Positions 8,476 through 64,000 of a stretch of 64,000 nt of DNA are shown piece by piece. Under the pieces are notes generated by a model that saw only the letters and a list, made by a program, of their open reading frames with translations, was not told the DNA's origin and made no database searches. The stretch is from Candidatus Woesearchaeota archaeon (GTDB lineage: Archaea > Nanobdellota > Nanobdellia > Woesearchaeales > ARS49): assembly GCA_016203305.1 (NCBI GenBank), contig JACQMY010000035.1:574-64573 (forward strand). Direction: 5' to 3'. The translations under genes were made by a program, and so were the position numbers. Position 1 is the stretch's first letter. Each line of letters begins with the position of its first letter.

Positions 8476-8640
8476 TGGGTATTGGGTGTTAGGAAGTAGG
8501 ACGCAGGGTGAAGGACGAAGGTATTAGGATGAAGGTTGTAGGACGTAGGATGAAGGGTGAAGGCGATTGGTTGTTGGCTATTAGCCCGTAGTAAGTGGTT
8601 TGTAGTTCGTAGTTGGTAGCCTACCTACTACTTACTACAT
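8476..8640. repeat. Array of ~22 degenerate heptamers (NNNNAGG/NNNGTAG), ending in a GGCTATTAGCC motif and a short CTAC-rich inverted segment
   Basis: gggtatt gggtgtt aggaagt aggacgc agggtga aggacga aggtatt aggatga aggttgt agg... then cctacctactacttactac. Confidence 0.7.
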
Positions 8641-10867: not shown

Positions 10868-11100
10868 AAGGGTGCAGGTTGTAGGGTGTAGGACGAAGGC
10901 GGAAGGATGTAGGACGTATTATGAAGAGCGAAGGCATTAGGTTGTAGGACGTAGGTTGTAGGTATTAGGACGAAGGATGTAGGTTGTAGGACGAAGGCGG
11001 AAGGGCGGAGATAGTTTGTAGTTGGTAGTGTGTGGTTTGTAGACTACTTACTACCTACTACGCACTACAAACTCGTTCTGTAAGACGAAGGCGAAGGTTA
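10868..11100. repeat. Long (~33 unit) heptamer array, with a short inverted CTAC segment that matches the flanks of the MITE copy A (candidate empty site)
   Basis: gggtgcaggttgtagggtgtaggacgaaggcggaagg... gtttgtagactacttactacctactacgcactacaaac. Confidence 0.7.
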
Positions 11101-14730: not shown

Positions 14731-14746
14731 TAAAACGAGGTGCAAC

Positions 14747-23640: not shown

Positions 23641-23733
23641 GTATTAGGCGTTAGGACGAAGGTATTAGGTTGTAAGACGAAGGCGGAAGGAAGAAGGTAT
23701 TAGGCGTTAGGTTGTAGGGCGGAAGGATGAAAT
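23636..23733. repeat. Heptamer array (G-rich only)
   Basis: taggtattaggcgttaggacgaaggtattaggttgtaagacgaaggcggaaggaagaaggtattaggcgttaggttgtagggcggaaggatg. Confidence 0.7.
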
Positions 23734-24813: not shown

Positions 24814-24850
24814 TTAGTGTGTAGTTTGTAGAGCGAATAAAGAACGAAAA

Positions 24851-33284: not shown

Positions 33285-34933
33285 CAGTTGCCCGTACCTG
33301 GCTGAGTATCTCCACCACCGTCAATTGGAGGCGGCGTGCTTGGGCCAGGAGAGGGACTTGGAGACGGACTCGGGGACGGGCTTGGAGACGGACTCGGAGA
33401 CGGACTGGGCGACGGGCTTGGAGAAGGGTCCGGAGACGGACTGGGCGACGGATCAGGAGATGGATTTGGAGATGGGCTCGGAGACGGACTTGGAGATGGA
33501 GGAGCTGCAGAACTGTCACGATCTTTCTTGCCAGAAGTCAGCGCATAAGCAGTTGCTCCTCCTGCCGCGACTGTTTCCATCCACGACCATGCTTCCATGA
33601 CGCGTGGCCGCAGATTCTCCCCGATAAAATTTGTCCCAGAATTCTTTGCGCCACGTGTGCGACTGGCACCCTCCTGGAGTACATCGGCGAGTTGTTCAAC
33701 ATCGCTGGAGCCATCTGGTGAATAGACATTGCGCGTCCAGGAATTACGACCATGACCGCTCGCATAGTGGAAGATTAGATTTATTGCAGGCACCGCGTAA
33801 ATTGCAAGATTGGGATGCAAGAGGCTCGGATCAACACAGTGCTGATCGAATGTTTCACGGATTCTCCTAACCACATGTGCTTGAAGAGCAAGCGTATCAG
33901 GGCCGTTCAAACCACGCTTTCGTGCGATTTCAAGCGGAATGCGCAACGCATAAACAGCTCGATTCTGAAATGCAAGGTGCCTGTTTTCATACGTGTCCTC
34001 TGCAACAAGAGTTTGCACATCAAGCATCAATTCCCGCATGAAGTTTTCTAGCGTCAGCCCCCTGCCACGTGCAATACCCTGCTCGTACAGTACGCTATTA
34101 TTCTCAAACAAATCTTGCAGCGTTTCACCTTTATATTTATCCCACACCGCGTCAGGAGTAATAGTTGCCGCATTATCCTCCAATGCAAGAGTAAGCTGTA
34201 TCACTCTCCGGTAGGCATCGTCCATAGGTTGAACTCTGAATTCAAGTGCGTTCGCATGTGCTACACCAGAGAGAACAGCGCGGAGGAACTCCAGAGATGC
34301 CCTATTATACTCTGCAATGGACTTATGCTCCACATTGTTTCCTGAAATCGCGGCATCACGTGCTGCCTTATTCGCAGGATTGATTGTGCCCAAAAGTTTA
34401 GTAAGTTCAGTTTCGCACGCTGCCAACTGCTCCGCACTCAATGGTTCAATATCACCAACACTGTCAAGTGTACTGTTCGCGTCAACGTTCGTCATCAAAT
34501 ATCTCTGAACAAGATTTTGTTCGAACAGCCGTGCAAGCAGTGTGTTCTGGCTGTGAAGTTCTGCAACTAACGGAGGTAATGCGGCTGCTGATTGAGTCGC
34601 ATAAGGTCTCGCGGCGAGGAAACGCGTGCTAACAAACTCATCGATCGTTCCATTATATTCGTACCTCGTTGCCTGTGCATTAACTGCACGAACCGGAACG
34701 TCCATATCTGGCTTATATCCCACAGGCGTTGCGCAACCGCTTCCTGACAAGGAAACAAGACCTACTAGTCCGAGTATGCTGCCTCCCGCGGTAAATCTGC
34801 GATTTGCAGGCAGCTTTTCAGTTTTATCTGAAACATCACGATCGTAGAAACGACCCACTAAATACCCAAAAAGTCCTCTGCGAGAAGATTGTTCCGGTGA
34901 GTATACCATTTGCCCCCAAGACGCGAAAAACAC
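33284..34933 (-). CDS. Putative Tat-exported lipoprotein with a C-terminal (PS)n linker, translationally coupled to the giant surface protein gene
   Basis: NRRFTAGGSILGLVGLVSLSGSGCA is a twin-arginine motif with a lipobox Cys. The C-terminus is SPSPSPSPSPNPSPDPSPSPSPDPSPSP... and the stop overlaps the next start at 33284. Confidence 0.55.
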   Translation of the reverse strand: MFFASWGQMVYSPEQSSRRGLFGYLVGRFYDRDVSDKTEKLPANRRFTAGGSILGLVGLVSLSGSGCATPVGYKPDMDVPVRAVNAQATRYEYNGTIDEFVSTRFLAARPYATQSAAALPPLVAELHSQNTLLARLFEQNLVQRYLMTNVDANSTLDSVGDIEPLSAEQLAACETELTKLLGTINPANKAARDAAISGNNVEHKSIAEYNRASLEFLRAVLSGVAHANALEFRVQPMDDAYRRVIQLTLALEDNAATITPDAVWDKYKGETLQDLFENNSVLYEQGIARGRGLTLENFMRELMLDVQTLVAEDTYENRHLAFQNRAVYALRIPLEIARKRGLNGPDTLALQAHVVRRIRETFDQHCVDPSLLHPNLAIYAVPAINLIFHYASGHGRNSWTRNVYSPDGSSDVEQLADVLQEGASRTRGAKNSGTNFIGENLRPRVMEAWSWMETVAAGGATAYALTSGKKDRDSSAAPPSPSPSPSPSPNPSPDPSPSPSPDPSPSPSPSPSPSPSPSPSPSPSPSPSPGPSTPPPIDGGGDTQPGTGN

Positions 34934-34985: not shown

Positions 34986-35165
34986 TAGGATGAAGGATGT
35001 AGGGCGAAGGATGAAGGTATTAGGATGAAGGCGGAAGGAAGAAGGGATTAGGCATTGGGTATTAGGACGAAGGGCGAAGGTGGAAGGAAGAAGACGAGGA
35101 TGAAGGTGGAAGGGTGAAGGAAGAAGGTTGGAGGACGAAGGCTTTTGGCAATTAGCTATTAGAAA
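34986..35165. repeat. Longest G-rich heptamer array in the window (~25 units), ending in GGCAATTAGCTATTAG
   Basis: ggatgaaggatgtagggcgaaggatgaaggtattaggatgaaggcggaaggaagaagggattaggcattgggtattaggacgaagggcgaaggtggaaggaagaag... Confidence 0.7.
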
Positions 35166-35972: not shown

Positions 35973-36036
35973 GTGAGAAGCGGGAAGAGGAGGGCTTTTT
36001 AAAGGTTGCGTTTTTGGTTTGCAGTTGGTAGTTCAT

Positions 36037-36088
36037 CGGAATTGTAATGCAATTCCGAGGTGATCGGAAATTGAAAATTTCCGACATG
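36037..36088 (-). mobile_element. Twin-hairpin MITE-like element, copy B (inverted relative to copy A)
   Basis: The reverse complement differs from 8639-8692 by one indel and one mismatch. Confidence 0.55.
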
Positions 36089-36090
36089 TG

Positions 36091-36140
36091 GTTTGTAGAC
36101 TAGGATATAGGTTGTAGGACGTAGGGTGAAGACGGAAGAA
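36091..36140. repeat. Short heptamer array adjacent to MITE copy B
   Basis: gtggtttgtagactaggatataggttgtaggacgtagggtgaagacggaag. Confidence 0.6.
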
Positions 36141-43905: not shown

Positions 43906-44400
43906 ATGAAGTTACTTAAGCACGACAGACAGCCATCATACGGGGGAATTGGTATGATGAAGGTCGTATTAACAATGCTAGTATTAGCCATAATAGCAGG
44001 GCCAACAGTTGAAACACGCCTAGCATACAGCACAGAACCATTCACGAGCACACAACAAATACCATTTGACGCCATAATCGTCTACAACGACCACTTAACA
44101 ATCAACTATCCAGGACTACGCTATGCAAAAGTAACAAGCAACAGCATGGCCCCAATCATAACAGACACATCAACAGCACTAGAACGCATACCAACATCAC
44201 CAGACGAAATACACACAGGAGACATAATTTCATTCTACGAGCCAAGCGTTGACGGAGTAGTACTACATTTAGTAACTGAAGTTCTCACTAAAGACGGCAC
44301 AACACATTACAAAACCAAAGGAGTAGCAAACCCAGAAGAAGACCCCTGGGAAGTGCCCTACGAGAACGTGAAAGGAATATTGGTTGGAGTAATTAAGTAG
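43906..44400 (+). CDS. Signal peptidase I (S26/Sec11-like)
   Basis: An N-terminal TM segment, then SNSMAP (the catalytic Ser box, SxSMxP) and a GDII box. The start was chosen at the ATG at 43906. Confidence 0.5.
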   Translation: MKLLKHDRQPSYGGIGMMKVVLTMLVLAIIAGPTVETRLAYSTEPFTSTQQIPFDAIIVYNDHLTINYPGLRYAKVTSNSMAPIITDTSTALERIPTSPDEIHTGDIISFYEPSVDGVVLHLVTEVLTKDGTTHYKTKGVANPEEDPWEVPYENVKGILVGVIK

Positions 44401-44530
44401 GACGAAGGTAGTAGGACGAAGGGTGAAGGTAGAAGAAACGCAATCTTCACCCTTCCGCCTTATACCTTCAACCTCAATTAGTTGTTGGCTGTTAGCTAAT
44501 GACTATTAGTACTAATGGCTAACAGCGGCT
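44398..44530. repeat. Heptamer hairpin plus a GGCTGTTAGC...GCTAACAGC palindrome between convergent genes
   Basis: gtaggacgaaggtagtaggacgaagggtgaaggtagaag...cttcacccttccgccttataccttcaacc then ttggctgttagctaatgactattagtactaatggctaacagcggc. Confidence 0.7.
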
Positions 44531-45203
44531 AAATTACCCTAACCGTCGCCTGATAAACTTTCTCAGTATAGAATTGCTTCCGGTTCTCAGGCTTGCACTC
44601 AGGAGGAGACTGTCCCTCATCCTTATACACGCAAACATTAAACACATAGTCGCCCTTTTGCGTTGGAATACCCTGACCAGCATTCACGTCAGCACGAATC
44701 AACAAAGGCCTAACCTCCTGCTGATTCTTCTTCAAAGTAAAAGGAGGAACACTCTTGAAGTTGCCCAACCACCTCTGCTCAACAAACTGAGCGTTCTTCT
44801 GAGAGATAACAGAGCCATCAGGAGCATAAGCCTCATCAAAACTCAAAATAGCACCGAAACGCGCCTGTGCACCAATATTACGAACACCAAGTGCAAATTT
44901 TGCCATCGCGCCACGCTTTGCGTCTACAACAGTAAAAGGAATAACAACCAACTGATTGCCAGACTTCAAAGTCTGCAAAATCTGCTCCTGAGTCTGGCGG
45001 TCAATCTCCTGCTCCAACTCCTGAGCGCTGCCAAACCATTTGAACAACAAGTTAACAGACAATATGAAAACTAGCACGCCAATAATTAGCGCGACCACCA
45101 TTCCGATGCTGAACTCAATACCCTTTTTGGAAGGTAGAAGGAAGAAGGAAGAAGGAAGAAGACCTGCTCCATTCAAATCAGTCACTATTTTTTTGCTCTT
45201 CAT
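44529..45203 (-). CDS. Putative class-III-signal (archaeal type IV pilin-like) protein. The start is uncertain.
   Basis: ...KKG|IEFSIGMVVALIIGVLVFILSV resembles an archaeal prepilin cleavage site plus a hydrophobic helix. The 5' 90 nt of the ORF are heptamer-repeat sequence, so the true start may be the internal Met. Confidence 0.35.
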   Translation of the reverse strand: MKSKKIVTDLNGAGLLPSSFFLLPSKKGIEFSIGMVVALIIGVLVFILSVNLLFKWFGSAQELEQEIDRQTQEQILQTLKSGNQLVVIPFTVVDAKRGAMAKFALGVRNIGAQARFGAILSFDEAYAPDGSVISQKNAQFVEQRWLGNFKSVPPFTLKKNQQEVRPLLIRADVNAGQGIPTQKGDYVFNVCVYKDEGQSPPECKPENRKQFYTEKVYQATVRVI

Positions 45204-46624: not shown

Positions 46625-49600
46625 CTACCGCTTCCGCAACTTACGCTCATACACTTTCAACAACTTGTTAACACGCCCAATATCCTTATCCAAAGCATCA
46701 AACGCGTTAACCTGGCCCCTGACGTCAGGTTTCTGCGACAACTTGTCAACCTTAACCGGCTTCTTCCACAACACATCATTACTCAAATCACGCCTATACC
46801 TTCTCAACAACCTGCCAACAAGACCAGACTCTTTCTCCAAAGGCAGTTGGCTAGTAGTTTGTAGTTTGTAGTTGATATCTCGTGGCGCTGGCTTCCTGGC
46901 AATTGCATCAACACGCTCCTTCCAAAGTCTGCCAGTCAGATCTTTTCTATACTTATGCAACAAACTATCAATCCTGCCAGCATTCAAACCAACACGAGGT
47001 ATCTCCCTTGCAACAAACCTACGCTGCTCTGCACGACGCGCCTGATACGCAGCCCACTTGCCACGCACCACGCCAGGAACACGAACCGCAACCTGGCCAG
47101 CACGGAACGTCACTACCGCCAACAAAACAACCAGCAAAACAGCCCCAAGCATGTATCCAACACTCTTCCAGTCAACTTCTCTTGCTTTCTGAGCAACAGA
47201 ACGCCCAATAACAGAAACAGAGTCTGCTGCATCTCTTGCTGTGCTAACAGCACGGTCCACCAAACCATTAGCTATTGGCGGTTGGCCAGCAGTTTGTGGT
47301 TGGTAGTTTGTAGTTTGTAGTGGGTAGTTTGTAGTTTGTGGAGACAATTTCGCCAACGCCAAAGACACCTGGTTGTTGAACAACATGACAACCTGAACAC
47401 GCAAATCAGGCAAACCATCATCTGTAACATCAACATCCTTTGACTGACCAGATGAAAGTACAAACTCCTGAGGCTCACTCTGCACGCGCAACAAAACATT
47501 ATTCACACCAACATTCAAAACAGTCAAAACATGCCGCTCGCCAGCAACATCAAACACAACACGATCAAACTTATTCAAATACGGCGTAACAAATGAAGCA
47601 GCAGGCATGTTGAATTCCCTTGGAATACTCACGTTCTGCGTTGCACGCGTAGCACCACCACCGCCACCACCCGACGGAGCAGGAGACGGAACAGGCGGAA
47701 CAACAGTAACGTTAACCGTTGTAAGCTCAGAAACAACAACAGAACCATTACCACCAGACAAGTTCTGGAATGATGCGTTAACAGTATTGTTCAACGTACC
47801 ACTTGCTCCCGCACTAACGTTCACAGTAATATTTACAGTCGTGCTATTGCCTGGAGAAAGATTGCCCAACAACCAAGTATTGTTACCAACACTCGGAACC
47901 GGCTGACTACCATTAAACACCACACTGCCAGGATACGTTTCAACCAAAGTCACATTAAACGCAGTCTCAGTACCCGTATTATTGATTGTAATATTGTAAG
48001 ATAGCGTAGAACCATTATTCACAGGATCAGAACCATCAGACTTGGATACGTTGATTGTAATGTTGCCTAGTTCTCCAGCAGCATAACTCGTAAAGCTAGA
48101 AACGTTAAACACAAGCACGCCACCTACATAACTCACTTCTATGCACTGCGGAGGATTACACTGCTCAAACACACCATCATCATTAAAATCAACACGCGGA
48201 CGAGGATCTGTGAAAGACAAACCACGCAACGTGATTTGAGCGGAAGTGTTCAAGAAAGTAAGGTTTGTGCTGTTGAGGAAGGAATTGTTGAAGCTTGTGT
48301 TGAGATTGTTGTTGTCCGGCTCATGGACTATTGATGTGCTCACCGGGATTATTGCAGTGTTGATCATAAGAATGCTTCCGTTGTTTGAATGGAAGAGAGT
48401 ACGCGTGAATGAGTTATTTTGACTTGTCGCATCGACTTCCACCCAAGTACTCCCAGTGACAAGAGTCGTGTTCACAAAGGTATTATTACTCGAAGCAGTA
48501 AACCGCATCGCATTTTGACCGCCCAGAATGCTGGTGTTGGCGAGGTTGTTGCCTTCACCGGAAATATCAATCGCGCTTCCGGTTGTATTGGTTATCGCAA
48601 TCACGAATGTGTTGTTATAAAACGTATTGTTGTTTCCTGCAAGTTCCATTCCATTGCCACTGTTGCTCAGTCCGGTGTTGTGGAACAAGATATTGTTATT
48701 GCTGCCAGAAAGCAAATCCATGCCTCTGTTGGACCCGCTCGTGCCTCTATTCCTTATCAGGGTATTGTTCACACTTGATGCTGAGAGCGAAATGCCTCTC
48801 GCATCGGCCAACCCAGTACCATTGTTCCCACTCAGTGTGTTATTGCTACTACCCTCCAAACCGATTCCTGCCAACGACCCGCTCACTCCTGTGTTTTCAA
48901 TAAGAGTATTATTCGTTGCCGAATTCAAACGTAAGCCGATAGAGGTAGAGCTATTACCCGTGTTTCCAAACAGGAAATTGGCAGAGGCAGACTGAACGTG
49001 CAGCCCATAGCCACCGCTCGTGCTCCGGCCAGTATTCCCCCGCAAGGTATTATTCGTACTACTGCCAACAACAATGCCCTCATCACTCACTCCAACCCCC
49101 GTATTATTCTCAAAAGTACTGTTTATCACGCTTACTATCAACATTCCTCGCGAACCAGCTCCATTCGTAGTCGCAGAGTTGTTAACGAACCTGCTGTTGT
49201 TTGTTGACTGCACCAAAAAGCCTGAAGATCCTACTACACTCGCGTTCGTCTTCACAACATTACAATTCCTAACCGTGACATTCGACCTCTGGAATACAAA
49301 AATCCCATTTCCTGCCGCACTATTCGCATAACTTACATTGAATCCAGCACAATCCAATTCAACATTGTTCGACTGAATCTGGATCGCAGTAGCAGGACAA
49401 GTCACGTTCTCAGCCAATGTCGTGCTTGTCGTAATGTTGAGTGGACAGGCTGCTGACTCTGAAGCAGCATAACTTGTAAAGCTAGAAACGTTGAAAACAT
49501 ACACGCCGCCAGCAAAGCTCACTTCAGTACATTGAGGAGCATTACAGTTTGTAAACGTTCCATCGTCTTCAAAGTCAACACGCGGACGAGGATCTGTGAA

Positions 49601-52600
49601 TGGAACTCCATTCAAAGTCACTTGCGCAGTTGTGTTGAACAAAGACAAGCTCGTGCTATTAACGAATGAATTATTGGTAGTAACGTTGAGCTTAAACTGT
49701 GTGACGTCCTGCGCACCAGACAATAATATAAGATCAGGGAAACGAACGCTTCCATTGCCAGTAACGAACGTTGTGTTTGTGAAATTACTAGTAACAGGAC
49801 CTGAAGAAATCACTCCCGAACTAATCCAACTCGGTGCAGAAATGATCGTATCAGTGAAGTTCGAGAAGTTTGCTCCTTGAATAGTAATACCTGCAAGACC
49901 TCCCGCACTCACATTGATAATATTACCAGTGAAATTGTTCGAGTTTGCAGTTGCCGCACCACCACCAACACCAATAGCAATTCCTATTACGCTTGCACCA
50001 CTTGCTCGTATGACGTTACGGCTCACGTTATTATCAGAAGACGCAACAGTAATGCCAGAACCAGCAGCAACTATCGAGTTATTGTCAAAAAAGTTGTTTG
50101 TCGAGGTTGTTTCAACGGACATGCCAGTCCCGCTGGTAGTAACAACAGTGTTGTTGCGCACCATGTTACCCGTACTAGAGAATTGAACCGCAATACCCCG
50201 ATCATTACTAAAGCCAGAAGCCCGCACAGTATTATTCTCAACCAGATTGTTCAGAGTGTTCAAACGAATACCCCAGTTTGAACCCCCCGCACCACTCGTT
50301 GTGATAGTGTTGCTGCCGATTGCGTTGTTATTCGCTCCACTAGCCAAGAACATACCAAAGCCAAGACCTCCAGCAGACACAGTAACTATATTGTTGTTAA
50401 CTATGGAGTGAGCAGTAGCGCCAACCATCCTCAGACCATCATTATCCGAACCCGAACCACGCGCGATGATCGAGTTATTACGCACAACATTGCCCGCTGT
50501 AGAACCCTCCAAACGCAAGCCATGATTTAACGTGCTACCATTCGTGATGATTGAATTGTTTTCAACCAAGTTGTTTGAACCGCCAATGAAACGCACTCCA
50601 ATATTCGTGTTCCCAGCAGTGCTTCCAGTATTGATCGTGTTGTTCCCAAAAGCACTGCTGCTCATAGAAGTTGCTTGTATGCCAATACCATTGGATGAGC
50701 TGCTATTGGTCAGAATAGTATTGTTCAGCACAACAATACCAGACCCACTGCTCACAACAATGCCGATTCCAGAAGAAGTCCCATTAGTCCCTATCGTATT
50801 ATTCATCAACGAAACGTTGGACGAACCGGATTGCAACAAAACACCATAATTATCATTCGTACCATTCGTCTGCAAAGAATTATTTGCAAACAAGTTGTTG
50901 TTGGAATTCGTCACATTGATTCCAATTCCAAACGCGCCTCCAGCATTACCATCAACAATCGCGCAATTTCTTACTGTGACATTATTCCTTCCACTAACCA
51001 AAACACCCTGATCCTGCCCGCCACCAGCAGTATCATAAGTCACAACATTCCCAGCACAATCCAGCATCACGTTGTCCGAATCAACCTGCACTGCAGTAGC
51101 AGGACACGTCACGTTCTCAGTTAGCATCGTGCTTGATGTTATGCTGAGCGGACAGACTGCTTCTGAAATGATTGTTACATTGTTGCTTAACACCGTAGAA
51201 CCATCAGTATTCGGCTGATTATCATTCGGAGTAACGGCGACAGACCAGTTCTGGCCAACAGAAAGTTCATTGCTAACTATTGTTTCGAGATGCCTGCTGC
51301 GGTTGCCGTCAAGGTAGAGTTGATAGACTTGTGCCGCGGAAAGCGAACGATTATAAATGCGTACTTCGTCAATCGTGCCGTTGAAAAGTTCATCAGGACC
51401 GCTTTCATCCTGTATAGTCCCAATCTTAAGATTATTAACGCTAATAGCCCCCAATGACGCTGTTGCAGGAGTGCCATTAACCCCATCAACATAAACATTC
51501 ACAGTATTGCCAGCCCTCACACCAACAACATGATGCCACACATTAGCCGTCAGTGCAGAAGATTTTGTTGCAGTAGCAACTGTCAATGCATTATCCCTCA
51601 CAAGAAATCTGACATCCGCATTAAACTGGTCCAACAATAACAAAAACGGATTAGGCTCAGTAAGAGTAGTTGAATAACCAACAACAGCGTGCAGCCCAGA
51701 CACTGTCCTTGGACGAATCCACGCCTCAACAGAATAATTAAACCCAAGCTGCGTCTTTACCACATCACCAAGACTAATCATATCATTAACACCATCAAAA
51801 ACATAACCCCCACCAACTTGCCCGGACAAATTCCACACAGGCACAGTCCCTGCAGTACCATTCCCCAACGTACCATTATTACCAAACTGCGAATAATCAC
51901 GAACAGCACCAGATGAAGTGGAACTACTGTTCGTCTCAAACGGCATATTCAAAACAGCAATACTAGTTCCATTCACGCGCCAATCAGTAATGTTCTGAAC
52001 TGCGTCATTGTCTGCATCGGTAGCGTTGATAACGAATACTGTCAGATTCTCACTTGTTGACGCATTATTTGCCGTTGCACCACTGCCATCAGTACTGTTC
52101 AAGATGACTTGAGCGATGGCAGGGTCTGAGTTCAGAATAGTCACATTGTTGCTAAGAACCGTCGCACCATCAGTATTCGGCTGATTATCATTAGGAGTAA
52201 CGGCGACAGACCAGTTCTGGCCAACAGAAAGTTCATTGCTAACTATTGTTTCGAGATGCCTGCTGCGGTTGCCGTCAAGGTAGAGTTGATAGACTTGTTC
52301 CGCGGAAAGCGAACGATTATAGATGCGTGCTTCATCAATAGTGCCATCCATGAACTCACTGCACCCAGCAGGATCACCCCCTATGCGAACCGGCTGACCA
52401 TTCACGCCAAGAGCACGAGTCTCTGATGTCTGATTCTCAAGAACACCATTAACGTAAATCCTCTTCGTACTACGATCATAAGTTCCAACCACGTGATACC
52501 ATTGACCTGTGCTTATCGACGTTGTACTCGAAAGACAGCCAAAATCGTTTGTCCCATCAGAAAGAACAAGACAAAACTTATTACCAGACGCCAACTCAAG

Positions 52601-55600
52601 CCCATACACCCTAAAAGGACTCGCACATGAACCAGTATATTTCCCGAAAATCCTATCAAAGCTGGTAAGAGAATCATAATTCACCCACGCCTCAAGAGCA
52701 ATAGCATTCTGAATATCAAGCGAATCAGAATCAGGAACCACAACATGATCGTTGACCCCATCAAACGAATACGCACCGCCAACTTTACCTGCGGAAGTCC
52801 ACGCCGGCGCATTGGCCGCAGTTCCGCCACCGAGCTGACCGCCATTTCCTGATTGCGAATAATCCCTCACCGCGCCAGATACTGTTGAACTCGTGTTCGT
52901 CTCAAACGGCATGTTTAAAACTGCAATACTTGTTCCATTAATGCGCCAGTCAGTAATATTCTGAACACCATCATCGTTCGCATCAGTTGCGTTGATGATG
53001 AAAACCGTCAAGTTCTCACTTGTCGATGCATTATTGCCAGAAGCACCAGAACCATCGGTACTGTTCAGAATGACTTGCGTGATGGAAGGAGCGACATTCG
53101 CAGACACAATCGTCACGTTATTGCTTAACACCGTAGAACCATCACTCGCATTCTGATTATCATTCGGAGTCACGGCGACAGACCAATTGTCACCAAGAGA
53201 GGTTTCCTGCTCTACAAAAGTCTCTGGATGATGAGAACGATTACCGTCAAGGAATAATTGTTGAACCTGGGCTGCAGTCAACGTACGATTGTAAATCCTC
53301 ACTTCATCTATAGTTCCGTTGAAATATAAGAGTCCCGCCGGACCGAACCACCCAATTTGGGCAACCAGGTTCGTGATACTTGGAGTATTGGCCGATGATG
53401 TAGACAGAGCCTGCAGCACGCCATCAACGTAGATGGAAGTTGTCGTGCTGATCGGCCCAGGAGTCTTGACTGCCACGATGTGATGCATCGTGTTCGCTGA
53501 AATGATTCCACCAGCAGTTCTCGCTCCATTCCCTCCTGCAAACTCAAGACTCACCCCGCCCGCGCCAACAACATTGATGCACAAACCCGCTGCTGCAAGA
53601 GCCACGGTCTCGTCGCCAGCAAGGACCGCGCACTGGGCGGCACTCGTTGTATTCGTCTTAAGCCACGTCTCTATAGAGAATGAAGGATTGCCCGATATCC
53701 CTGTGTTCTGCTGCGTGACGATGTAGTCAGTAGTCCCATCAAACACATACGCACCACCAACACGACCAGAAGAATTCCACACAGGAGCATTCGCCACACT
53801 CCCATTCCCCAGAGTTCCATTATTTCCATATGATGAATAATCACGGATCGCACCAAGAGCAGTGGAGTTCGTATTCGTCTCAAACGGCATATTCAACACA
53901 GCAATACTAGTTCCATTCACACGCCAATCAGTAATATTCTGCACCCCGTCACCATCCGCATCAGTCGCGTTGATGACGAACACGGTCAGGTTCTCTCTCA
54001 AAGAGGCATTATTTGCTGTAGCCCCACTACCATCGGTGCTGTTCAAGATGACCTGTGCAATAGCAGGATCAGCATTCAAAATAGTCACATTATTACTGAG
54101 CACAATCGAACCATCACTTGCATTCTGATTATCATTAGGAGTAACAGCAACACTCCAAACATCACCGCGACGAAGCTGTGAGGAACTGATCGTTTCCAAA
54201 TGCCTGCTGCGATTGCCATCAACATATAATTGGTATACCTGATCTGCAGACAATGAACGATTAAAAATTAAAACTTCATCTATAACCCCGTTAAAGTATC
54301 TACCATCAGAGGCAGAACCTATTAATACGGGAAGCGAATTGGAAGGCAGAGTGCCAGGTATAGTGCCCGAGAAGGATAAACTAACAGAGCTGCCATTAAT
54401 GTAAGCTTTTAAACGTCCCGCATTGCCAATCCCGGAACCATCATAAACCATTACCACCTGTGTCCATACATTATTATCCAAAAAATTTCCTGTTGTGAAA
54501 CCAATATCAAGCCCTCCAATAGCGGTAGGTGCAAAAACGAGATCATTCATGTCAAACTCAGCAGTCCCTACGAAAAAGTTTCCAGTAGCGGCGCTGTATT
54601 TGCTTATCAATGATTTTAACGCGCTAAGAGATATTGGTTTAACCCATAAGCTTATCGATAAAGAAGACAAGCCATCTAACGCGTTTATATCCCCGAAATC
54701 AACATAATCATCAACACCATCAAAAGTATACGCGCCACCAACCCTTCCAGAAGCAGTCCAAACAGGAGCGTTCGCAACAATTCCATTGCCCAAAGTACCA
54801 TTATTCCCAAACGACGAATAGTCTCTAACTACTCCTGTAACAGTTGAACTCGCATTCGTCTCAAACGGCAAATTCAACACTGCAATAGAAGTGCTATTTA
54901 TTCTCCAATCAGTTATGTTCTGAACAGAATCACCATCCGCATCAGACGCGTTAATGACAAAGACTGTGATATTCTCACTCGTAGACGCATTATTACCCAA
55001 AGCACCACTGCCATCAGTCGAGTTCAAGATGACCTGCGCGATGGAAGGATGCGCATTCACGATTGTCACATTATTGCTCAACACAGTAACACCATCAGTA
55101 TTCGGCCGATTATCATTAGGAGTAACGGCAACAGACCACACATCGCTGCGACGCAGTTCGGCTGATGCGATCGCGCTCAAATGCTTGCCTTGATTCGTGT
55201 CGTTATACAACTGCACGACTTCAGCTGTGCTCAGCGTGCGATTGAAAATCATGATTCCATCCATCGTGCCATCGAAGAATGTCCCCAGGTTATTACTGTT
55301 GAAATAACGCTCGCCAATGACGATCGGCTGGCTGTTTGTCTGCAAGTTTGCATATGCTCCACTATTATTCAACGAACCATTCTTGTATAACCGCAAGGTT
55401 GATCCATCTGCAGTAATCACATAATGCGTCCACACATTTATCTGGATTGGCACGCTCTCCGATACAACAGTGATGGTCCCAACATTGTTGCGCACAAACG
55501 CGCCCACCGCACTGAAATCAATCCACGCCCCAAAATTGTTATTGACGCTATCTAAATCACGGGTCCCCACGATGATCGTTGCAAGATTCGCCCCCGTAGC

Positions 55601-58600
55601 CGTGATCACGTCAGGCCTTAGCCAAAAGGCAATGCTGTACGTCGAAGGTTTGAGAGACGCATTATTTGCAACATGAATAAAATCATTCGCGCCATCAAAC
55701 GTGTACGCACCGCCGACCTTCCCTGAACCATTCCATTGCGGAGCAGCACCAGAAGACCCCTCACCTAATTGCGCGTTGTTACCCGCAGTCGAATAACTCC
55801 TGATCGCCCCGCTGCTCACATCGCTTGAATTCGTCTCAAACGGCAAATTCAAGACTGCAATACTCGTTCCATTGACACGCCAGTCAGTGATGTTCTGAAC
55901 TGAATTGTTGTCAGAGTCAGACGCGTTGATGACAAAGACAGTCAGATTCTCGTCTCTTGTTGCGTTATTGCCCAAGTAGCCAGACCCATCCGTGCTGTTC
56001 AATATCACTTGGCCAATGAATGGATCTGTGTTCGCGGAGACAATGGTGACGTTATTACTCAAGACTGTCGTACCGTCGCTTGCGTTCTGGTTGTCGTTTG
56101 GAGTAACTGCGACCGACCAGTTCTGGCCAATCGAGAGCTCATTGCTCACAACAGTTTCAATGTGCTTGCTGCGGTTGCCGTCAATAAAAGACTGATTAAC
56201 TTCTTGAGCGGAAAGCACACGGCCATACACCCGCACCTCATCCAGAGTTCCTGCAAATGCATCAGACGTCGTATCAGGACGCCCACCAACAGCCTTCTGC
56301 GCTGAAGCAAATCCCGGATTGGCATACGCGACACTGGAATCAAGGCTTCCGTTGAAATAAAAGCGAGCAGTTGAGGCATCATACGTTACGGCCACATGAT
56401 GCAAACTCGCAGTATCAGTGATTGTTCCAGTACTGCACGCTTCACTAATGCCGACCATTCCAATACAAAGCTTGTTCAGAGGGGAGAAATAGAACCCCCA
56501 CCCATTGGTCGCTGAAGAAACTATACCATCGCTCGTGCCAACACCATGTCGCCTCACCCACGCCTCAGCAGTCAGCGTTGTAATCTGCAGACTCGCAGGA
56601 GTACCAAGATCAATGTAATCATCCACACCATCAAAAGTATACGCCCCACCAACCTTTCCAGAAGAGTTCCACACAGGAACATTCGCAGCAGTACCCGCAC
56701 CAAGAGTGCCATTATTCCCAAACGTTGAATAATCACGAATCGCTCCCGCCGCAGTCGAACTGCTGTTAGTCTCAAACGGCAAATTAAGAACAGCTATTGA
56801 AGTTCCATTCACGCGCCAATCAGTGATGTTTTGAACGCTGTCGCCATCAGCATCAGTTGCGTTGATCACAAACACTGTCAAATTCGCACTCGAAGAAGCA
56901 TTATTACCCAAAGCACCACTGCCATCAGAACTGTTCAAGATGACCTGGGCAATCGCAGGATCGCTATTGAGAATAGTAACGTTGTTGCTGAGAACTGTTG
57001 TTCCATCCGTATTAGGCTCGTTATCATTAGGAGTCACAGCAACACTCCAAACATCGCCACGATGAAGCTCTTGCGAGACGAAAGTCGTCGGATGATTGCC
57101 ATTCAGACTGTCATTGTAAAGTCTGGCAACTTGCGCGGCCGAGAGCGAACGGTTATAGATGCGTGCTTCGTCAATCAACCCATTAAAGAACTCTGACCCT
57201 CCATCGAGCGAACCGATGTACAGATCCCCTGCATAATTCACCGAACCAAGCGATTGAGTCACGCTCGCCTGCAACGTTCCATTTACATAAAGATGAGCAG
57301 TGCTCGTTGAACGATCATAAACACCAACCAAGTGATACCAAGTATTCGCAGTAATCGGAGCGTTCGGTTGCGCAACATTTGTACCATCCCCAATCCCAAA
57401 GAATGCCGAGCTCCCAGAAGTCATCAAATAAATCCCATTGAAAACGGCCCCGCCCGAGTTTTTCCACAATATCCTATTGAATGCCGGAAGCGAAGATGCC
57501 TTAAACCACGCCTCATAACTGTATCCTTGCAAATTCGGAGTTATGCTCACACTATTGGGCACCCTGACAAAATCATTTGACCCATCAAACGAATACGCGC
57601 CGCCCACCTTTCCCGATGAAGTCCACCCTGGCGCATTCGAAGACACCCCATTGCCAAGCGTACCATTGTTAGTAAATGCTGAATAATCCCTAATCGCTCC
57701 TGTTGCAGTACTGCTAGAATTCGTCTCAAACGGCATATTCAAAACCGCAACAGAAGTTCCATTCACCCGCCAGTCGGTAATGTTTTGCACCGACGCATTA
57801 TCCGCGTCTGTCGCGTTGGTGATGAAAACAGTCAAGTTCTCATTCGTCGTAGCATTATTACCAAGATAACCGCTCCCATCCGTGCTATTCAAAACCACCT
57901 GAGCAATAGAAGGAGCGGTATTCGCTGATACAATAGTCACGTTATTACTTACCACAGTCGCGCCATCAGTATTCGGCTGATTATCATTTGGAGTAACCGC
58001 AACCGACCACGCCTGACCCGCCAAAAGCTCATTGCTCACCACAGACTCCAAATGCCTGCTGTTATTCCCATCAAGATAAAGCCGGTAGGCTTGCGCAGAA
58101 GTCAACGTACGATTAAAAATGGCAACCTCATCAAGCGTTCCTGTGAAAAAGTTCGAACCAGTCGCCCCAGAACCAACATATATCTCTTCTGTAAAGAACG
58201 TATGACTCGTCGTCAACTGCGTCGCATTCTTAAGCACACCATCAAGATAAATCCACTGGAACTTTGACGAATTCACCGCACACACAAAATGATGCCAAGC
58301 GTTATCCGCAACATTGACACCTGCCCCAGCAACCTCCCCGCCAGGATAGCCAAAACCACACGCAAACACGCTATTACTCACATATGGATGATACCCTCGT
58401 GTGTGTGCAGTGTCGCCCATTATTAACAACAAATCATCACCAGAAGAATCTGAAGTCTTAAACCACCCGCTAAAACTAAGCGCACTATTACCACTCGCAG
58501 GGAAACCAACAAGCGAACCAATCAAAATATTATCCCCCCCATCAAAAGTAAACGCGCCACCAACACGACCAGACAAATTCCACACAGGCGAAGCAGAAGA

Positions 58601-61600
58601 CACACCATTTCCAAGAGTACCATTATTCGACACACTCGCATAACTCTTCACCGCACCAGAAACCAAACTCGAAACATTCGTCTCAAAAGGCATGTTCAAA
58701 ACCGCTATTGAATTTCCATTCACACGCCAATCAGTAATGTTCTGGATTGAATCGCCATCCGCATCAGTTGCGTTGATTACGAACACCGTCAAGTTCTCAC
58801 TTGTCGATGCGTTATTTCCAGTGAAACCACTGCCATCAGTAGAATTCAAAATGACCTGTGCGATGCTCGGATCACTATTCAAAATTGTAACATTATTGCT
58901 CAACACTGTTGAACCATCCGAAGCGTTCTGGTTATCGTTAGGAGTAACAGCAACACTCCAGTTCTGGCCGTGACGCAATTCCTGAGAAACAAACGTTTCT
59001 GGATGCTTACTTCGATTACCATCTACATACAACTGCCTGACCTGCTGCGAGGACAGCGAACGATCATACATCCTGAACTCGTCCATCTTTCCATCAAACC
59101 TTGCCACTTCGCTTGGAGCGAACGTCAATGTATTGGCGAACGTGTTCTGCATATCAACCCCTGTAGCTGATGCCTGCAAAGTTCCATTCAAGTAAATACT
59201 CGCGTTTTGTGTTATCGAATCATATGTTGCAACCAAGTGATTCCATGTCCCTGCAGCAGTGGTGCCCGTATTCACATTAGCAACCTCGCCACAGCCATCA
59301 AACTCAATCGTACCCGTGCCACCTGACATAAAGATACGCCAACCATTGGTGCACGCGCAACAACTGGCAACTTTATGGAAAAGAAGTTGTATCCTCAGCT
59401 GATCGGGATTAAACCAGAACTCAACAGAAAAAGAACCAGTGTTCATCGCTGCTGTGTTTGCGACCGTCATGAGGCTGTTCGAACCGTCAAAGTCTATCGC
59501 GCCCCCCACCTTGCCAGTGCTCATCCAGGAAATACTTGTAGGCGAGCCATTGTTGCCACCAGGAGCATAATTGCGCGCGGTTGACGCAGTGTTCGTCTCA
59601 AACGGCATGTTCAGCACTGCAATCGAAGTTCCGTTGACACGCCAGTCAGTAATGTTTTGGATGGAGTCACTGTCTGCATCAGTTGCGTTGATCACGAACA
59701 CCGTCAAATTCTCATTCGTACTTGCGTTATTGCCTGTTGCGCCAGAACCATCAGTACTATTCAAAATAACCTGTGCAATGGAAGGATCCACGTTCGCACT
59801 GATCGTTACGCTATTGCTCGTCTTGGTCGTCCCATCTGTGTTCGGCTGATTATCATTCGGAGTAACCGCAACAGACCAATTCTGACCAACAGAGAGTTCC
59901 TGGCTAACGATTGTCTCAAGATGCTTACTGCTATTACCATCAAGGTAAGACTGGTTTATTTCCTGAGCGCTTAGCGTCCTGTTAAACATCAGCACTTCAT
60001 CAATAGAACCACTCCACGGCTGGTTGGTACCGTCACGAGCGCCCATCTCAAAATTCGCCGCATTGCTCAAACTTCCCGCAAATGATGAACTATCATGATC
60101 AGTGACTGCTTGCAACGCGCCATCCACATAGACACTCATCCCGCTGCGCGTCTTGCTTCCGTCATACGTAACAACCACTTGATGCCATGCACCATCGTTG
60201 AACGTGGCAGTCGTCTGCCTTCGCATGACAGTCGTCGAACCATCGACAAGGACAAACCCCACTTTGCCCGCATCACCTGCACCAGCCGTCACCACGTTCA
60301 TACCAACTTGATAACCGGCGAAAGACCCTGAGAACAATTCCTTGCTGGCAATCGTATAGACCGCCGCACCACCCGCAGTCGTCTTAAACCATGAATGAAT
60401 CGAGAAAGGCCCTGAACCAGACTGATCAAGAACATTGCCCAGATTGATATAGTCATTCGAACCATCGAAAATATAATAGCCCCCTACTTTTCCAGACGTG
60501 TTCCAAACAGGCGCGTTCGCTGCAGTGCCCGCGCCGAGCGTGCCATTATTGCCAAAAGTAGAATAATCCCTAACTGCTCCAGAAATGACCGTCGTGACAT
60601 TAGTCTCAAACGGCATATTCAAAACTGCGATAGATGTCCCATTGATACGCCAGTCCGTGATGTTCTGGACAGAATCATTATCCGCATCACTCGCATTAAT
60701 CACGAACACCGTCAAATTCTCATTCGTAGAAGCGTTATTGCCAGTTGCGCCGCTGCCATCCGTGCTGTTCAAAATTACTTGATCAATTTCAGGATGAGAA
60801 TTGATGATTGTCACGTTATTGCTCAGCACAGTCGTACCATCAGTATTCGGCTCGTTATCATTAGGAGTCACCGCGACGGACCAAACGTCGCCGCGGCGAA
60901 TCTGATTCGCATGCATCGTTTCCACGTGACGAGAACTGTTGCCATCCAGATACGTCTGATAAATCTGGCCTGATGACAATGACGTGTTAAAGATCGCGAC
61001 CTCATCAACCCGTCCATCATAAAAGTTCGCCGCGGTTGAATACTTACCCATCTGCAACGCATTCGCAGAATGTGAAACAGAACCAGTGACCGCGGTCTGA
61101 CCCGTCAGCTGACCGTCAACATACGCAAGAAGATGCGTTTGGTTGTACACTCCCACGAAATGGCGCCAAGAACCCAGCATATTTGTCGTGTTAAACGTCA
61201 CCGTTGATGGAGTCAAACCGTACGCGAAGAACGTCCACGTATTCCCTACACAATCCTCATAGAACATATACCCTTGCGTACCGATCGTTATCTTTCCAAC
61301 AGGAACGAAATTATCCCTCGTCCCATCACACGTCGAGTTGACATCCTGATTGATCCACGCTGAAACGGTAAACGCCCCGCTTGGACGCAACGATGCACTG
61401 TCCGCCACGCTGATGAAATCGTTCACCCCATCGAAATCGTATGCTCCTCCCACACGACCCGAAGTCGTCCAGACAGGAACCTGCGCCGCAGCGCCAGCAC
61501 CAAGCGTCCCATTATTGATCGAGGTCGAATAATCCCTCACCGCGCCGGTTGTGACCACAGAAAGATTCGACTCAAACGGCATATTGAGCACGGCCATACT

Positions 61601-63997: not shown

Positions 63998-64000
63998 CGC

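What the first reader, a model, noticed from the sequence alone, without database searches (positions are those of the whole stretch)
46625..47340. Repetitive cytoplasmic tail on the giant surface protein, partly built from the intergenic heptamer repeat
After the TM helix (≈47105-47165) the protein continues for ~155 aa on the cytoplasmic side. This tail has three degenerate repeats: IDSLLHKYRKDLTGRLWKER..KP, VGRLLRRYRRDLSNDVLWKKP and IGRVNKLLKVYERKLRKR. It also carries an NYKLQTTSQ segment encoded by gtagtttgtagtttgtag (46851-46880). The juxtamembrane extracellular segment (47281-47340) is likewise encoded by (GTTTGTA)n, giving (LQTTNY)n. A 7-nt DNA repeat stays in frame only as a 21-nt (7-aa) period, so a non-coding repeat family appears to have been recruited into coding sequence. 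A long basic cytoplasmic tail on an adhesin suggests inside-out anchoring or signalling.
Basis: seen in the sequence. Interest (0 to 1): 0.55.

Follow-up and report, generated by a model that had tools for sequence, protein, structure and literature searches.

The report
Basic tail and heptamer-coded linkers
The membrane anchor of a 6,100-residue archaeal surface protein carries an unusually long, strongly basic cytoplasmic tail built from three old copies of a helix motif, and two short linkers in it are translated 7-nucleotide microsatellites, a kind of repeat already known from bacteria.

Summary
The ORF at 46625-64000(-) is the C-terminal 5,790 codons of a 6,100-aa protein of a Candidatus Woesearchaeota archaeon. 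It has one TM helix (47105-47161) followed by a 159-aa tail (pI 11.2, net charge +25).

The tail is real coding sequence. It holds three old protein-level copies of a helix motif. The last copy weakly resembles the extreme C-termini of a few distant homologues. Most homologues have short tails (median 10.5 aa), and the closest relative lacks the motif.

Two short segments (47291-47341 and 46854-46874) are (AAACTAC)n heptamer arrays read in frame. Both fall in stretches modelled without secondary structure. The same unit forms hairpins at two of its three intergenic sites in the window. However, the dominant intergenic heptamer family here is a different unit, (WAGGNNN)n.

Heptamer arrays that sit in ORFs only in their stop-free orientation have been described before (MacGregor 2015). 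I also found the same AAACTAC arrays in frame inside bacterial housekeeping-type genes in metagenome contigs; one carrier, a TsaD, has Patescibacteria as its closest named relatives.

"Recruitment of non-coding DNA" is not required, because arrays can arise in place. Tail function is untested. My best guess is a positive-inside plug plus a docking or self-association helix. Signalling is not supported.

The parts
46625..64000 (-). Giant surface-protein gene. The window holds its C-terminal 5,790 codons. The full product is 6,100 aa (P0001, NCBI MBI4146721.1, Candidatus Woesearchaeota archaeon), with LamG and beta-helix domains and an N-terminal signal-like segment.
47345..47584 (-). Membrane-proximal all-beta domain shared by more than 150 cluster representatives. 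No Pfam or NCBIfam model matches it.
47270..47341 (-). Extracellular linker SPQTTNYPLQTTNYQPQTAGQPPIAN, encoded by about 10 degenerate heptamer units (sense AAACTAC; TRF core 47291-47341).
   Evidence: Aligned with one gap to the P0002 linker. Low pLDDT (58-78) and no secondary structure.
47162..47269 (-). Juxtamembrane extracellular segment (GLVDRAV...REVDWKS), helical in a low-confidence model.
   Evidence: low confidence
47105..47161 (-). Single transmembrane helix VGYMLGAVLLVVLLAVVTF.
46973..47104 (-). Arg-rich membrane-proximal part of the cytoplasmic tail (RAGQVAVRVPGVVRGKWAAYQARRAEQRRFVAREIPRVGLNAGR).
46913..46972 (-). Tail repeat R1, IDSLLHKYRKDLTGRLWKER (helical in a low-confidence model).
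46842..46876 (-). Second heptamer-coded segment (I)NYKLQTTSQLP. (AAACTAC) x 2.9 perfect copies plus a flank; 84% identical over 32 nt, in the same frame, to 47277-47308.
   Evidence: No secondary structure in the low-confidence model; mRNA predicted unstructured.
46757..46819 (-). Tail repeat R2, VGRLLRRYRRDLSNDVLWKKP.
46628..46708 (-). C-terminal heptad-patterned helix containing repeat R3 (NAFDALDKDIGRVNKLLKVYERKLRKR).
8587..8637 (.). Intergenic TAG-core heptamer array (GTAGTTT-type) that folds on its own inverse as a hairpin.
   Evidence: (z -3.2)
11012..11073 (.). Intergenic TAG-core heptamer hairpin, the best non-self match to the coding linker (90% over 31 nt, E 6e-7).
   Evidence: (z -4.7)
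24815..24835 (.). Short intergenic TAG-core array TAGTGTGTAGTTTGTAGAGCG.

Best explanation
This is the C-terminal membrane anchor of a giant, heavily N-glycosylation-sequon-rich surface protein of a DPANN archaeon.

Order from N to C (shown):
1. A membrane-proximal beta domain.
2. A roughly 24-aa unstructured linker.
3. A juxtamembrane segment.
4. One TM segment.
5. A 159-aa cytoplasmic tail with pI 11.

The tail (shown) is genuine, selected coding sequence. It has an Arg-rich membrane-proximal stretch and three ancient protein-level copies of a motif, roughly hydrophobic-G-R-hydrophobic-x-x-L-L-x-[KR]-Y-x-[KR]-x-L. The last copy forms a heptad-patterned, basic C-terminal segment of a type that recurs at the extreme C-terminus of a minority of family members.

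The heptamer segments (shown). The extracellular linker and a spacer between tail copies 1 and 2 are in-frame heptanucleotide microsatellites (AAACTAC)n.

Why they are tolerated (inferred). Such arrays arise by slippage everywhere in this kind of genome. Inside genes they persist only in the orientation without stop codons, in net lengths that are multiples of 3 (blocks of three units = 21 nt = 7 aa), and in structurally tolerant linkers. There they act as hydrophilic flexible spacers (Q/T/N/Y/K/L).

Tail function (inferred, not shown). It acts as a positive-inside stop-transfer plug that holds a 6,100-aa ectodomain in the membrane. Its repeated helix motif serves for self-association or for docking to a cytoplasmic or membrane-face partner.
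For: Anatomy and topology.

The tail is coding sequence.
- Per-codon log-likelihood is -3.92 in frame against -4.30 and -4.33 off frame, the same as for the preceding domain.
- R1 and R2 share 15 identical residues. Eight of these use different synonymous codons, and nucleotide identity is only 51%. The repeat is therefore kept at the protein level.

Structure. The repeats are helical and the heptamer segments lack secondary structure in the single-sequence model, which is low confidence (pLDDT 45). The linker is unstructured in the confident domain model (pLDDT 58-78).

The tail motif recurs in the family.
- A profile of the three repeats puts its two best hits among 149 other proteins at the extreme C-termini of P0018 and P0009.
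- A profile of seven other C-termini gives one hit in all 6,100 aa, namely R3.
- Nine of 36 long tails have a heptad-patterned helix in the last 40 aa, against 1.27 +/- 1.05 in shuffles.

Heptamer arrays.
- Statistics and matches.
- Of 120 fetched metagenome loci carrying the same 19-mer, many hold it in frame inside long ORFs.
- 44% of 202 heptamer arrays in those contigs lie inside ORFs of at least 150 aa.

Published precedent. Heptamers sit in ORFs only in their stop-free orientation and at protein peripheries, and heptanucleotide repeats are the commonest long simple repeats in prokaryotes (PMC4679880).
Against: - No homologue of the tail as a whole exists among 1.84 billion representatives.
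- The motif matches are weak (E 0.03-1.4 in small local databases) and are persuasive only by their position.
- Amphipathicity of the helices is not above shuffled controls.
- The tail model has low confidence.
- No topology predictor was run.
- No partner protein, oligomer model or expression data exist.
- The closest relative P0002 and the other surface proteins in the window do without such a tail. It is therefore not required for anchoring as such.
Confidence: 0.55

Rival explanations
1. Phase-variation switch. Gain or loss of one or two 7-nt units shifts the frame. The cell population would then toggle between an anchored protein and a released, TM-less protein (linker array), or between a full and a truncated tail (tail array).
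For: - The unit length is not a multiple of 3.
- In silico changes of +/-1 or +/-2 units at the linker array give a stop 12-27 codons later, before the TM helix.
- The same changes at the tail array give a stop 2-27 codons later, removing R2 and R3.
- Giant adhesins are classic targets. A heptanucleotide array inside the H. influenzae hmw1A ORF with a frameshift is on record (PMC2651432).
Against: - The arrays are short and imperfect (at most 2.9 perfect units; 80% matches in the linker).
- Early out-of-frame stops are expected by chance.
- The linker aligns with a single 1-aa gap to the diverged relative P0002, which argues for stability.
- No strain variants could be found.
Confidence: 0.08
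2. The heptamer arrays are kept for a function at the DNA or RNA level, for example tandem binding sites for a single-strand-binding regulator or a recombination or replication signal. The encoded peptide would be a tolerated by-product.
For: - In Patescibacteria-type TsaD proteins, 52 of 120 homologues have a 19-aa loop segment of fixed length whose half-repeats, spaced 7 aa apart, change together. Within-sequence identity is 3.02 of 4 against 1.34 of 4 between sequences. The tandem structure is thus kept while the unit sequence drifts.
- The coding arrays are predicted unstructured and C/A-rich.
- MacGregor proposed S1, Csp or CsrA-type binders for TAACTGA arrays.
Against: - Repeated slippage and homogenisation alone can produce concerted evolution.
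- No binder is known.
- In this genome two of the three intergenic copies are hairpins, unlike the coding copies.
- The P0002 linker has decayed from the heptamer pattern without losing length.
Confidence: 0.15
3. One reading: the tail is a receptor-like module for inside-out anchoring or signalling, analogous to integrin tails.
For: The tail is long, carries a conserved-looking repeated motif and sits on a putative adhesin. A similar C-terminal helix occurs in some relatives.
Against: - No known adaptor-binding motif, domain or homologue was found.
- Most relatives have tails of 3-20 aa.
- Nothing in the neighbourhood suggests a signalling partner.
Confidence: 0.1
4. The tail is a non-functional 3' extension: a recent stop-codon loss reading into former intergenic sequence that contained a heptamer array.
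For: - The tail has no homologues.
- It contains an array of a type otherwise seen between genes.
- P0002 ends 38 aa after its TM helix.
Against: - In-frame codon usage equals that of the neighbouring domain.
- There are 159 stop-free codons.
- The internal repeats are conserved at the amino-acid level with synonymous differences.
- The C-terminal motif is shared with distant relatives.
- There is no trace of the AGG-type arrays or of a hairpin partner arm.
Confidence: 0.04

Closest known systems
TAACTGA heptamer direct repeats of marine Beggiatoaceae, cyanobacteria and Bacteroidetes (MacGregor 2015, PMC4679880)
   Same: A 7-nt unit in short tandem sets, mostly intergenic. One orientation gives stops in every frame. 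The other is stop-free and occurs inside a few ORFs as a 7-aa peptide repeat (LSVISYQ), mainly at protein peripheries.
   Different: The unit here is AAACTAC (peptide NYKLQTT). The host is an archaeon. Two of the three intergenic copies are hairpins rather than arrays placed just upstream of start codons. The arrays here sit in defined linkers of a giant anchored surface protein.
Heptanucleotide simple-repeat phase variation of H. influenzae HMW adhesins (Power et al. 2009, PMC2651432)
   Same: A 7-nt repeat associated with a very large adhesin gene, including one array inside the ORF where unit changes shift the frame.
   Different: Those arrays have 13-38 perfect units and documented strain variation. 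Here there are at most 2.9 perfect units and no variation data.
Tandem repeats of Borg elements that create intrinsically disordered protein regions (PMC9879509; abstract seen)
   Same: Archaeal-associated DNA in which tandem nucleotide repeats occur both between genes and inside ORFs, where they add disordered segments.
   Different: Per that abstract, Borg repeats are recently formed and rapidly evolving. Here the unit is 7 nt, the arrays are short and degenerate, and the linker copy predates a divergence to 66% identity.
Cyanobacterial STRR heptamer repeats (own knowledge: Mazel et al. 1990)
   Same: Families of tandem heptanucleotides scattered through intergenic DNA. My AGG-array scan recovered many cyanobacterial loci.
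   Different: As far as I recall, STRR are described as non-coding. The units differ.
Giant surface proteins of DPANN archaea, e.g. SPEARE proteins of Nanohaloarchaeum antarcticus (own knowledge)
   Same: Multi-thousand-residue extracellular proteins with lectin or adhesin-type domains in host-dependent, ultra-small archaea. LamG and beta-helix domains are present here.
   Different: No protease or nuclease domains were detected here. To my knowledge no long basic cytoplasmic tail has been described for them.
Archaeal C-terminal anchors of the PGF-CTERM/archaeosortase type (own knowledge)
   Same: A C-terminal TM segment on a glycosylated surface protein.
   Different: There is no PGF motif and no NCBIfam hit. 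The TM helix is followed by 159 aa, not a few basic residues.

Membership tests
Heptanucleotide simple repeats embedded in an ORF (as for TAACTGA/LSVISYQ) | Tandem copies of a 7-nt unit, more than chance | tested here: met
   TRF: 2.9 perfect copies and 7.0 copies at 80%. The 14-mer occurs 7 times against 0.03 expected.
Heptanucleotide simple repeats embedded in an ORF (as for TAACTGA/LSVISYQ) | The same unit also forms intergenic arrays in the same genome | tested here: met
   8587-8637, 11012-11073 and 24815-24835; 90% over 31 nt, E 6e-7.
Heptanucleotide simple repeats embedded in an ORF (as for TAACTGA/LSVISYQ) | Found in ORFs only in the stop-free orientation | tested here: met
   The sense strand AAACTAC reads AAA CTA CAA ACT ACA AAC TAC with no stop. 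The complement meets TAG in every frame within 21 nt (direct reading).
Heptanucleotide simple repeats embedded in an ORF (as for TAACTGA/LSVISYQ) | Located in a structurally peripheral or linker part of the protein | tested here: met
   Linker pLDDT 58-78 with no secondary structure, next to a domain at about 96. The tail copy lies between modelled helices in a low-confidence model.
Heptanucleotide simple repeats embedded in an ORF (as for TAACTGA/LSVISYQ) | Copy number differs between relatives in steps that keep the frame | tested here: inconclusive
   By my reading of the two sequences, P0002 carries one more 7-aa unit (IANVRQP) after the aligned part. The aligned part itself is the same length apart from a 1-aa gap. 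No strain data.
Phase-variable contingency locus | Long, perfect repeat tract | tested here: not met
   At most 2.9 perfect units; the linker array has 80% matches.
Phase-variable contingency locus | A unit change switches the ORF on or off | tested here: met
   +/-1 or 2 units give a stop within 12-27 codons (linker) or 2-27 codons (tail). This is weak evidence, since it is expected by chance.
Phase-variable contingency locus | Unit-number heterogeneity within or between populations | not testable with these tools
   No reads are available, and no related strain was found in the genome or metagenome collections.
Type I single-pass membrane protein with a cytoplasmic tail | N-terminal signal-like segment and one C-terminal TM helix | tested here: met
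   P0001 starts MKKGGIDRRLVVALLAIAFALVLVLVPF. There is only one strong hydrophobic peak, at aa 5613-5631 of the window ORF.
Type I single-pass membrane protein with a cytoplasmic tail | Positive-inside charge bias, with glycosylation sequons confined to the outside | tested here: met
   Tail K+R 26.4% against 3.9% in the ectodomain; 0 sequons against 6.95 expected. No dedicated topology predictor was run.
PGF-CTERM / archaeosortase-sorted protein | PGF-type motif, then a TM segment, then a few basic residues at the very C-terminus | tested here: not met
   No NCBIfam or Pfam match. The tail is 159 aa.
Integrin-like inside-out signalling receptor | Tail motifs that bind defined cytoplasmic adaptors | not testable with these tools
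   No family, structure or homologue matches the tail.
[not shown]
   [not shown]

The most novel reading that the evidence does not exclude
In ultra-small episymbiotic prokaryotes (DPANN archaea and Patescibacteria), heptanucleotide arrays are not just tolerated junk. They would be an actively maintained element that lives inside genes as well as between them. Position and length are held constant while the unit sequence changes in concert. This implies either a dedicated 7-nt-periodic mechanism (a binding protein or a polymerase or primase property) or selection on the nucleic acid. The two arrays bracketing the TM helix and tail repeat R1 of this giant adhesin would then be functional landmarks, for example recombination or regulation sites, rather than plain spacers.
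Probability: 0.2. Interest if true: 0.75.

Novelty: new member of a known kind. Interest (0 to 1): 0.42.

Why it matters
DPANN archaea are thought to depend on giant surface proteins to attach to host cells, yet how these proteins are held in the membrane and coupled to the cell interior is unknown. This locus gives a concrete testable object. It is a 159-aa basic tail with a triplicated motif whose last copy recurs at the C-terminus of some relatives.

The heptamer part matters more broadly. It shows that 7-nt microsatellites, usually treated as intergenic, are translated into linkers in an archaeon. The same unit also sits in frame inside bacterial housekeeping-type genes in metagenome contigs, at least one of them of Patescibacteria type. 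If that pattern proves to be maintained rather than merely tolerated, it would point to an unrecognised 7-nt-periodic process in these reduced genomes.

Tried and rejected
- Word-indexed homology search with the last 338 aa found nothing.
- Protein-guided scans of genome contigs and metagenome contigs found no relative, so there is no strain comparison. The look-up of encoding contigs for P0002 found no record.
- Pfam and NCBIfam on the tail and on the last 338 aa gave nothing meaningful. The PDB sequence search gave only spurious hits at E 0.05 or worse.
- Hydrophobic moment of the tail helices is not above shuffles (maximum 0.64 against 0.61 +/- 0.09), so I dropped 'amphipathic' as a demonstrated property.
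- I tested for a larger intragenic duplication bracketed by the two arrays. Similarity between the juxtamembrane segment and R2 disappears once the heptamer-coded part is removed (21 against 18.9 +/- 3.9). Rejected.
- I looked for the tail motif elsewhere in the window. There is none, and the other surface proteins there have tails of 9 and 21 aa.
- Rfam and tRNA scans of the window were empty.
- A genome scan with a (WAGGNNN)x7 pattern showed such arrays in many unrelated bacteria. It is therefore no lineage marker and gave no related archaeal locus.
- Literature searches for Woesearchaeota or candidate phyla radiation heptamer repeats found nothing.
- The afdb50 fold library was unavailable.
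- I considered MIM1-type (ESCRT) and dileucine sorting motifs by eye. The spacing does not fit, so I did not pursue them.
Full report
**What is at the coordinates**

The minus-strand ORF 46625-63997 runs off the window. An exhaustive HMMER search returned an identical 6,100-aa protein, P0001. It is NCBI MBI4146721.1, 'right-handed parallel beta-helix repeat-containing protein', from a Candidatus Woesearchaeota archaeon, on a 112.8-kb contig. The window ORF is its C-terminal 5,790 residues.

The protein has at least 12 LamG-type stretches plus beta-helix/NosD repeats. Its N-terminus is a signal-like hydrophobic segment. Neighbouring genes (family B DNA polymerase, Lhr helicase, Hsp70, further secreted proteins) are consistent with an archaeal chromosome.

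**Checking the observation**

- **TM helix.** One strong hydrophobic segment, VGYMLGAVLLVVLLAVVTF, lies at 47105-47161. It is followed by 159 codons to the stop.
- **Composition.** The two sides differ sharply. The ectodomain has K+R 3.9%, pI 4.46, 10.7% Asn and 259 N-x-S/T sequons in the window part. The tail has K+R 26.4%, pI 11.2 and no sequon, where about 7 would be expected (P about 1e-3). Together with the N-terminal signal-like segment this supports N-out/C-in. No dedicated topology predictor was available.
- **Repeats.** R1 against R2 scores 65 against 22 +/- 4.8 in shuffles (0 of 2000). R2 against R3 scores 43 (2 of 2000). R1 against R3 scores 34 (14 of 2000).

**Is the tail real coding sequence?**

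Yes.

- Its per-codon log-likelihood under the window's in-frame codon model is -3.92, against -4.30 and -4.33 for the off-frame models. This is the same pattern as in the preceding domain plus TM segment (-3.81).
- R1 and R2 share 15 identical residues, 8 of which use different synonymous codons. Overall nucleotide identity is 51%. The repeats are therefore old duplications kept at the amino-acid level, not a recent DNA repeat.
- A single-sequence AlphaFold model is poor (pLDDT 45). It places helices on the TM region, R1, R2 and R3, and leaves the heptamer-coded parts without secondary structure.
- Amphipathicity is not above shuffled controls, so I do not claim it.

**Homologues**

No protein other than P0001 itself matches the tail among 1.84 billion representatives. 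153 proteins (including P0001) match at E <= 0.001, through the roughly 85-aa domain just before the membrane, with or without the TM segment.

Among 132 proteins in this set with a C-terminal TM helix, the median tail is 10.5 aa (quartiles 7 and 35). This tail ranks third in length.

The closest relative, P0002, is MBI4146977.1. It is probably a paralogue from the same MAG, judging by the accession number, which is an inference. It is 66% identical over 122 aa covering the domain and linker, but ends 38 unrelated residues after its TM helix. Other surface proteins in the window have tails of 9 and 21 aa. A long tail is therefore not a family trait.

Several distant members do end in sequences like R3:

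| Protein | C-terminal sequence |
|---|---|
| P0018 | ...DMKRIEKLLKKYDRQFKK |
| P0009 | ...AEMLLRKYRKQ |
| P0005 | ...IEEMNKLLKKR |

Three tests bear on this resemblance:
- A profile of R1-R3 puts its two best hits among 149 other proteins at the extreme C-termini of P0018 and P0009 (E 0.15 and 1.4).
- The reverse profile, built from seven other C-termini, gives a single hit in the whole 6,100-aa protein, namely R3 (E 0.034).
- Nine of 36 tails of at least 30 aa have a heptad-patterned helix in the last 40 residues, against 1.27 +/- 1.05 in shuffles.

These scores are weak. The argument rests on position. I read the tail as an expanded, triplicated version of a recurrent C-terminal helix.

**The heptamer-coded segments**

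TRF finds 46854-46873 (GTAGTTT, 2.9 copies, perfect) and 47291-47341 (7 copies at 80%; as a 21-nt period, 2.4 copies at 90%). They encode INYKLQTTSQ and SPQTTNYPLQTTNYQPQTAG.

The two segments also share a flank. 46842-46873 and 47277-47308 are 84% identical over 32 nt and are read in the same frame (NYKLQTTSQLP and NYQPQTAGQPP). No larger duplication is detectable once the heptamer part is removed.

The same unit occurs at three intergenic sites. The best match is 11012-11042 (90% over 31 nt, E 6e-7). The others are 8598-8619 and 24815-24831. The 8587-8637 and 11012-11073 arrays are followed by their own inverse and fold as hairpins (z -3.2 and -4.7). The coding copies are one-armed and predicted unstructured.

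The sense unit AAACTAC has no stop in any frame, whereas its complement meets TAG in every frame within 21 nt. Only this orientation can sit in a gene.

In the confident model of the membrane-proximal domain (pLDDT about 96), the heptamer-coded linker drops to 58-78 with no secondary structure.

The bulk of the window's intergenic heptamer arrays are a different, degenerate unit, (WAGGNNN)n, with up to about 22 units. So the phrase 'the intergenic heptamer repeat' is only partly apt.

**Was non-coding DNA recruited?**

This is not required by the data.

- The linker array is at the same place in P0002, which aligns with one 1-aa gap (QTTNYPLPTTGKQPIATSQPPIAN). The array is therefore older than that divergence. 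By my reading of the sequence, P0002 then carries one more 7-aa unit (IANVRQP).
- A scan of metagenome contigs for the exact 19-mer returned more than 120 loci. In many of them the array lies in the sense orientation inside intact bacterial housekeeping-type ORFs. I identified these ORFs by eye from their sequences as TsaD, MurB, NAD-dependent DNA ligase, topoisomerase I, an aminoacyl-tRNA synthetase, LepA, GatA, DnaG, IscU and PyrD.
- The DNA there is (ACTACAA) x 4-5, perfectly in frame.
- The closest named relatives of one carrier are Patescibacteria TsaD proteins.
- In those contigs, 44% of 202 heptamer arrays lie inside ORFs of at least 150 aa, against 75% for random positions.
- In the TsaD family, 52 of 120 homologues have a 19-aa loop segment whose half-repeats, spaced 7 aa apart, co-vary (KLQT..KLQT, KFQI..KFQI, KYKI..KYKI). 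Within-sequence identity is 3.02 of 4 against 1.34 of 4 between sequences, and is close to zero (0.02-0.41 of 4) at offsets 5, 6 and 8.

Arrays thus arise and turn over in place within coding sequence.

One caveat applies. Loci fetched with an exact 19-mer are biased towards perfect arrays. The TsaD analysis does not depend on that.

**Published context**

MacGregor (2015, PMC4679880) described TAACTGA heptamer repeats. They are mostly intergenic. They are barred from ORFs in the orientation that gives stops, and present in a few ORFs in the other orientation as LSVISYQ repeats at protein peripheries. She also cites earlier work that heptanucleotide repeats are the most abundant long simple repeats in most prokaryotic genomes, with polymerase slippage proposed as the cause.

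Heptanucleotide arrays upstream of, and once inside, the H. influenzae HMW adhesin genes mediate or suggest phase variation (PMC2651432).

**Mechanism**

Shown:
- The anatomy.
- The compositional evidence for topology.
- The coding status of the tail.
- The protein-level age of the repeats.
- The DNA-level nature of the two linkers.

Inferred:
- The arrays are slippage products retained as hydrophilic flexible spacers.
- The tail acts as a positive-inside plug.
- The repeated helix, and especially the C-terminal heptad-patterned copy, mediates self-association or docking at the cytoplasmic face.

Rivals:
- **Phase-variation switch.** Changes of +/-1 or 2 units truncate the protein 12-27 codons later, before the TM helix, or remove R2 and R3. 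But the arrays are short and imperfect, and the linker aligns with a single 1-aa gap to the diverged relative.
- **Nucleic-acid-level function of the arrays.** This is suggested only by the concerted evolution seen in TsaD.
- **Receptor-like signalling.** No evidence.
- **Read-through artefact.** Contradicted by codon usage and by the synonymous differences.

**Verdict**

The giant protein's anchor is an unusual but not outlandish variant of a single-pass anchor. The heptamer-coded linkers belong to a known kind of repeat, here documented in an archaeon. The most interesting thread, in-frame heptamer arrays that evolve in concert in Patescibacteria-type TsaD genes, lies outside the finding and needs a dedicated survey.

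Noticed in passing
window 8491-8567, 10869-11008, 12016-12064, 14592-14708, 22804-22865, 23639-23722, 34987-35145, 36102-36129, 44399-44474 (also 967-1024, 3167-3221): Degenerate heptamer arrays (WAGGNNN)n of up to about 22 units fill many intergenic regions, G-rich mostly on the + strand. Several are followed by their inverse and form long hairpins (14590-14735: -58.7 kcal/mol, z -6.4). No Rfam match. A pattern scan found look-alike (AAGGNNN)n arrays with inverse partners in very diverse bacteria (e.g. L001 5720-5830), so this is a widespread repeat class of unknown function.
   Followed up: partly
window 8642-8662 + 8669-8691 and 36036-36058 + 36064-36084: Two perfect short hairpins (TCGGAAATT-3nt-AATTTCCGA and TCGGAATTG-5nt-CAATTCCGA) occur as a pair twice in the window, in opposite order and orientation. 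Each pair is flanked by GTAGTTT-type heptamers. No matches were seen in 100 shuffles. This is a small repeated element or RNA of unknown nature.
   Followed up: partly
loci L121-L240 (e.g. L161:4349-5401:-, L187:2982-3911:-, L232:1556-2557:+, L178:9317-11503:+, L202:5018-7189:-): The heptamer array (AAACTAC)n lies in frame inside intact bacterial housekeeping-type ORFs (identified by eye from the sequences as TsaD, MurB, LigA, TopA, an aminoacyl-tRNA synthetase, LepA, GatA, DnaG, IscU and PyrD). The closest named relatives of the L161 TsaD are Patescibacteria proteins. In the two MurB-like ORFs (L187, L232) it is at the same site. In 52 of 120 TsaD homologues a 19-aa loop segment keeps its length while its two half-repeats, 7 aa apart, change together. 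I found no paper describing this.
   Followed up: partly
[not shown]
   Followed up: partly
window 45130-45161, inside ORF 44529-45203 (-): An AGG-type heptamer array ((GAAGGAA) x 4.6, 96% matches) would be translated as LLPSSFFLLPS in the N-terminal leader of a 224-aa membrane protein, if the ATG at 45203 is the true start. This is a possible second case of an intergenic-type heptamer inside a gene.
   Followed up: no
proteins P0101, P0028, P0043, P0115, P0048 (tails after the C-terminal TM helix): A different tail class in the same protein family carries a short conserved module around ...[LI]xxxGWxxxx[IV]... (e.g. EQIKQALISAGWEEAIVAELL). A third class is Pro-rich and ends in Y/FY (P0033, P0049, P0052, P0064). 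The same extracellular domain plus TM helix is thus combined with several alternative cytoplasmic endings.
   Followed up: no
window 33348-33500, inside ORF 33284-34933 (-): A 12-nt/36-nt tandem repeat (12.8 copies) encodes a long (SP)n-type C-terminal low-complexity region in a 549-aa protein.
   Followed up: no
whole window: Strong and uniform strand asymmetry. GC skew on the + strand is negative in all but one 2-kb bin (most bins -0.05 to -0.27), and AT skew is positive in all but one. Most long genes are on the minus strand.
   Followed up: no
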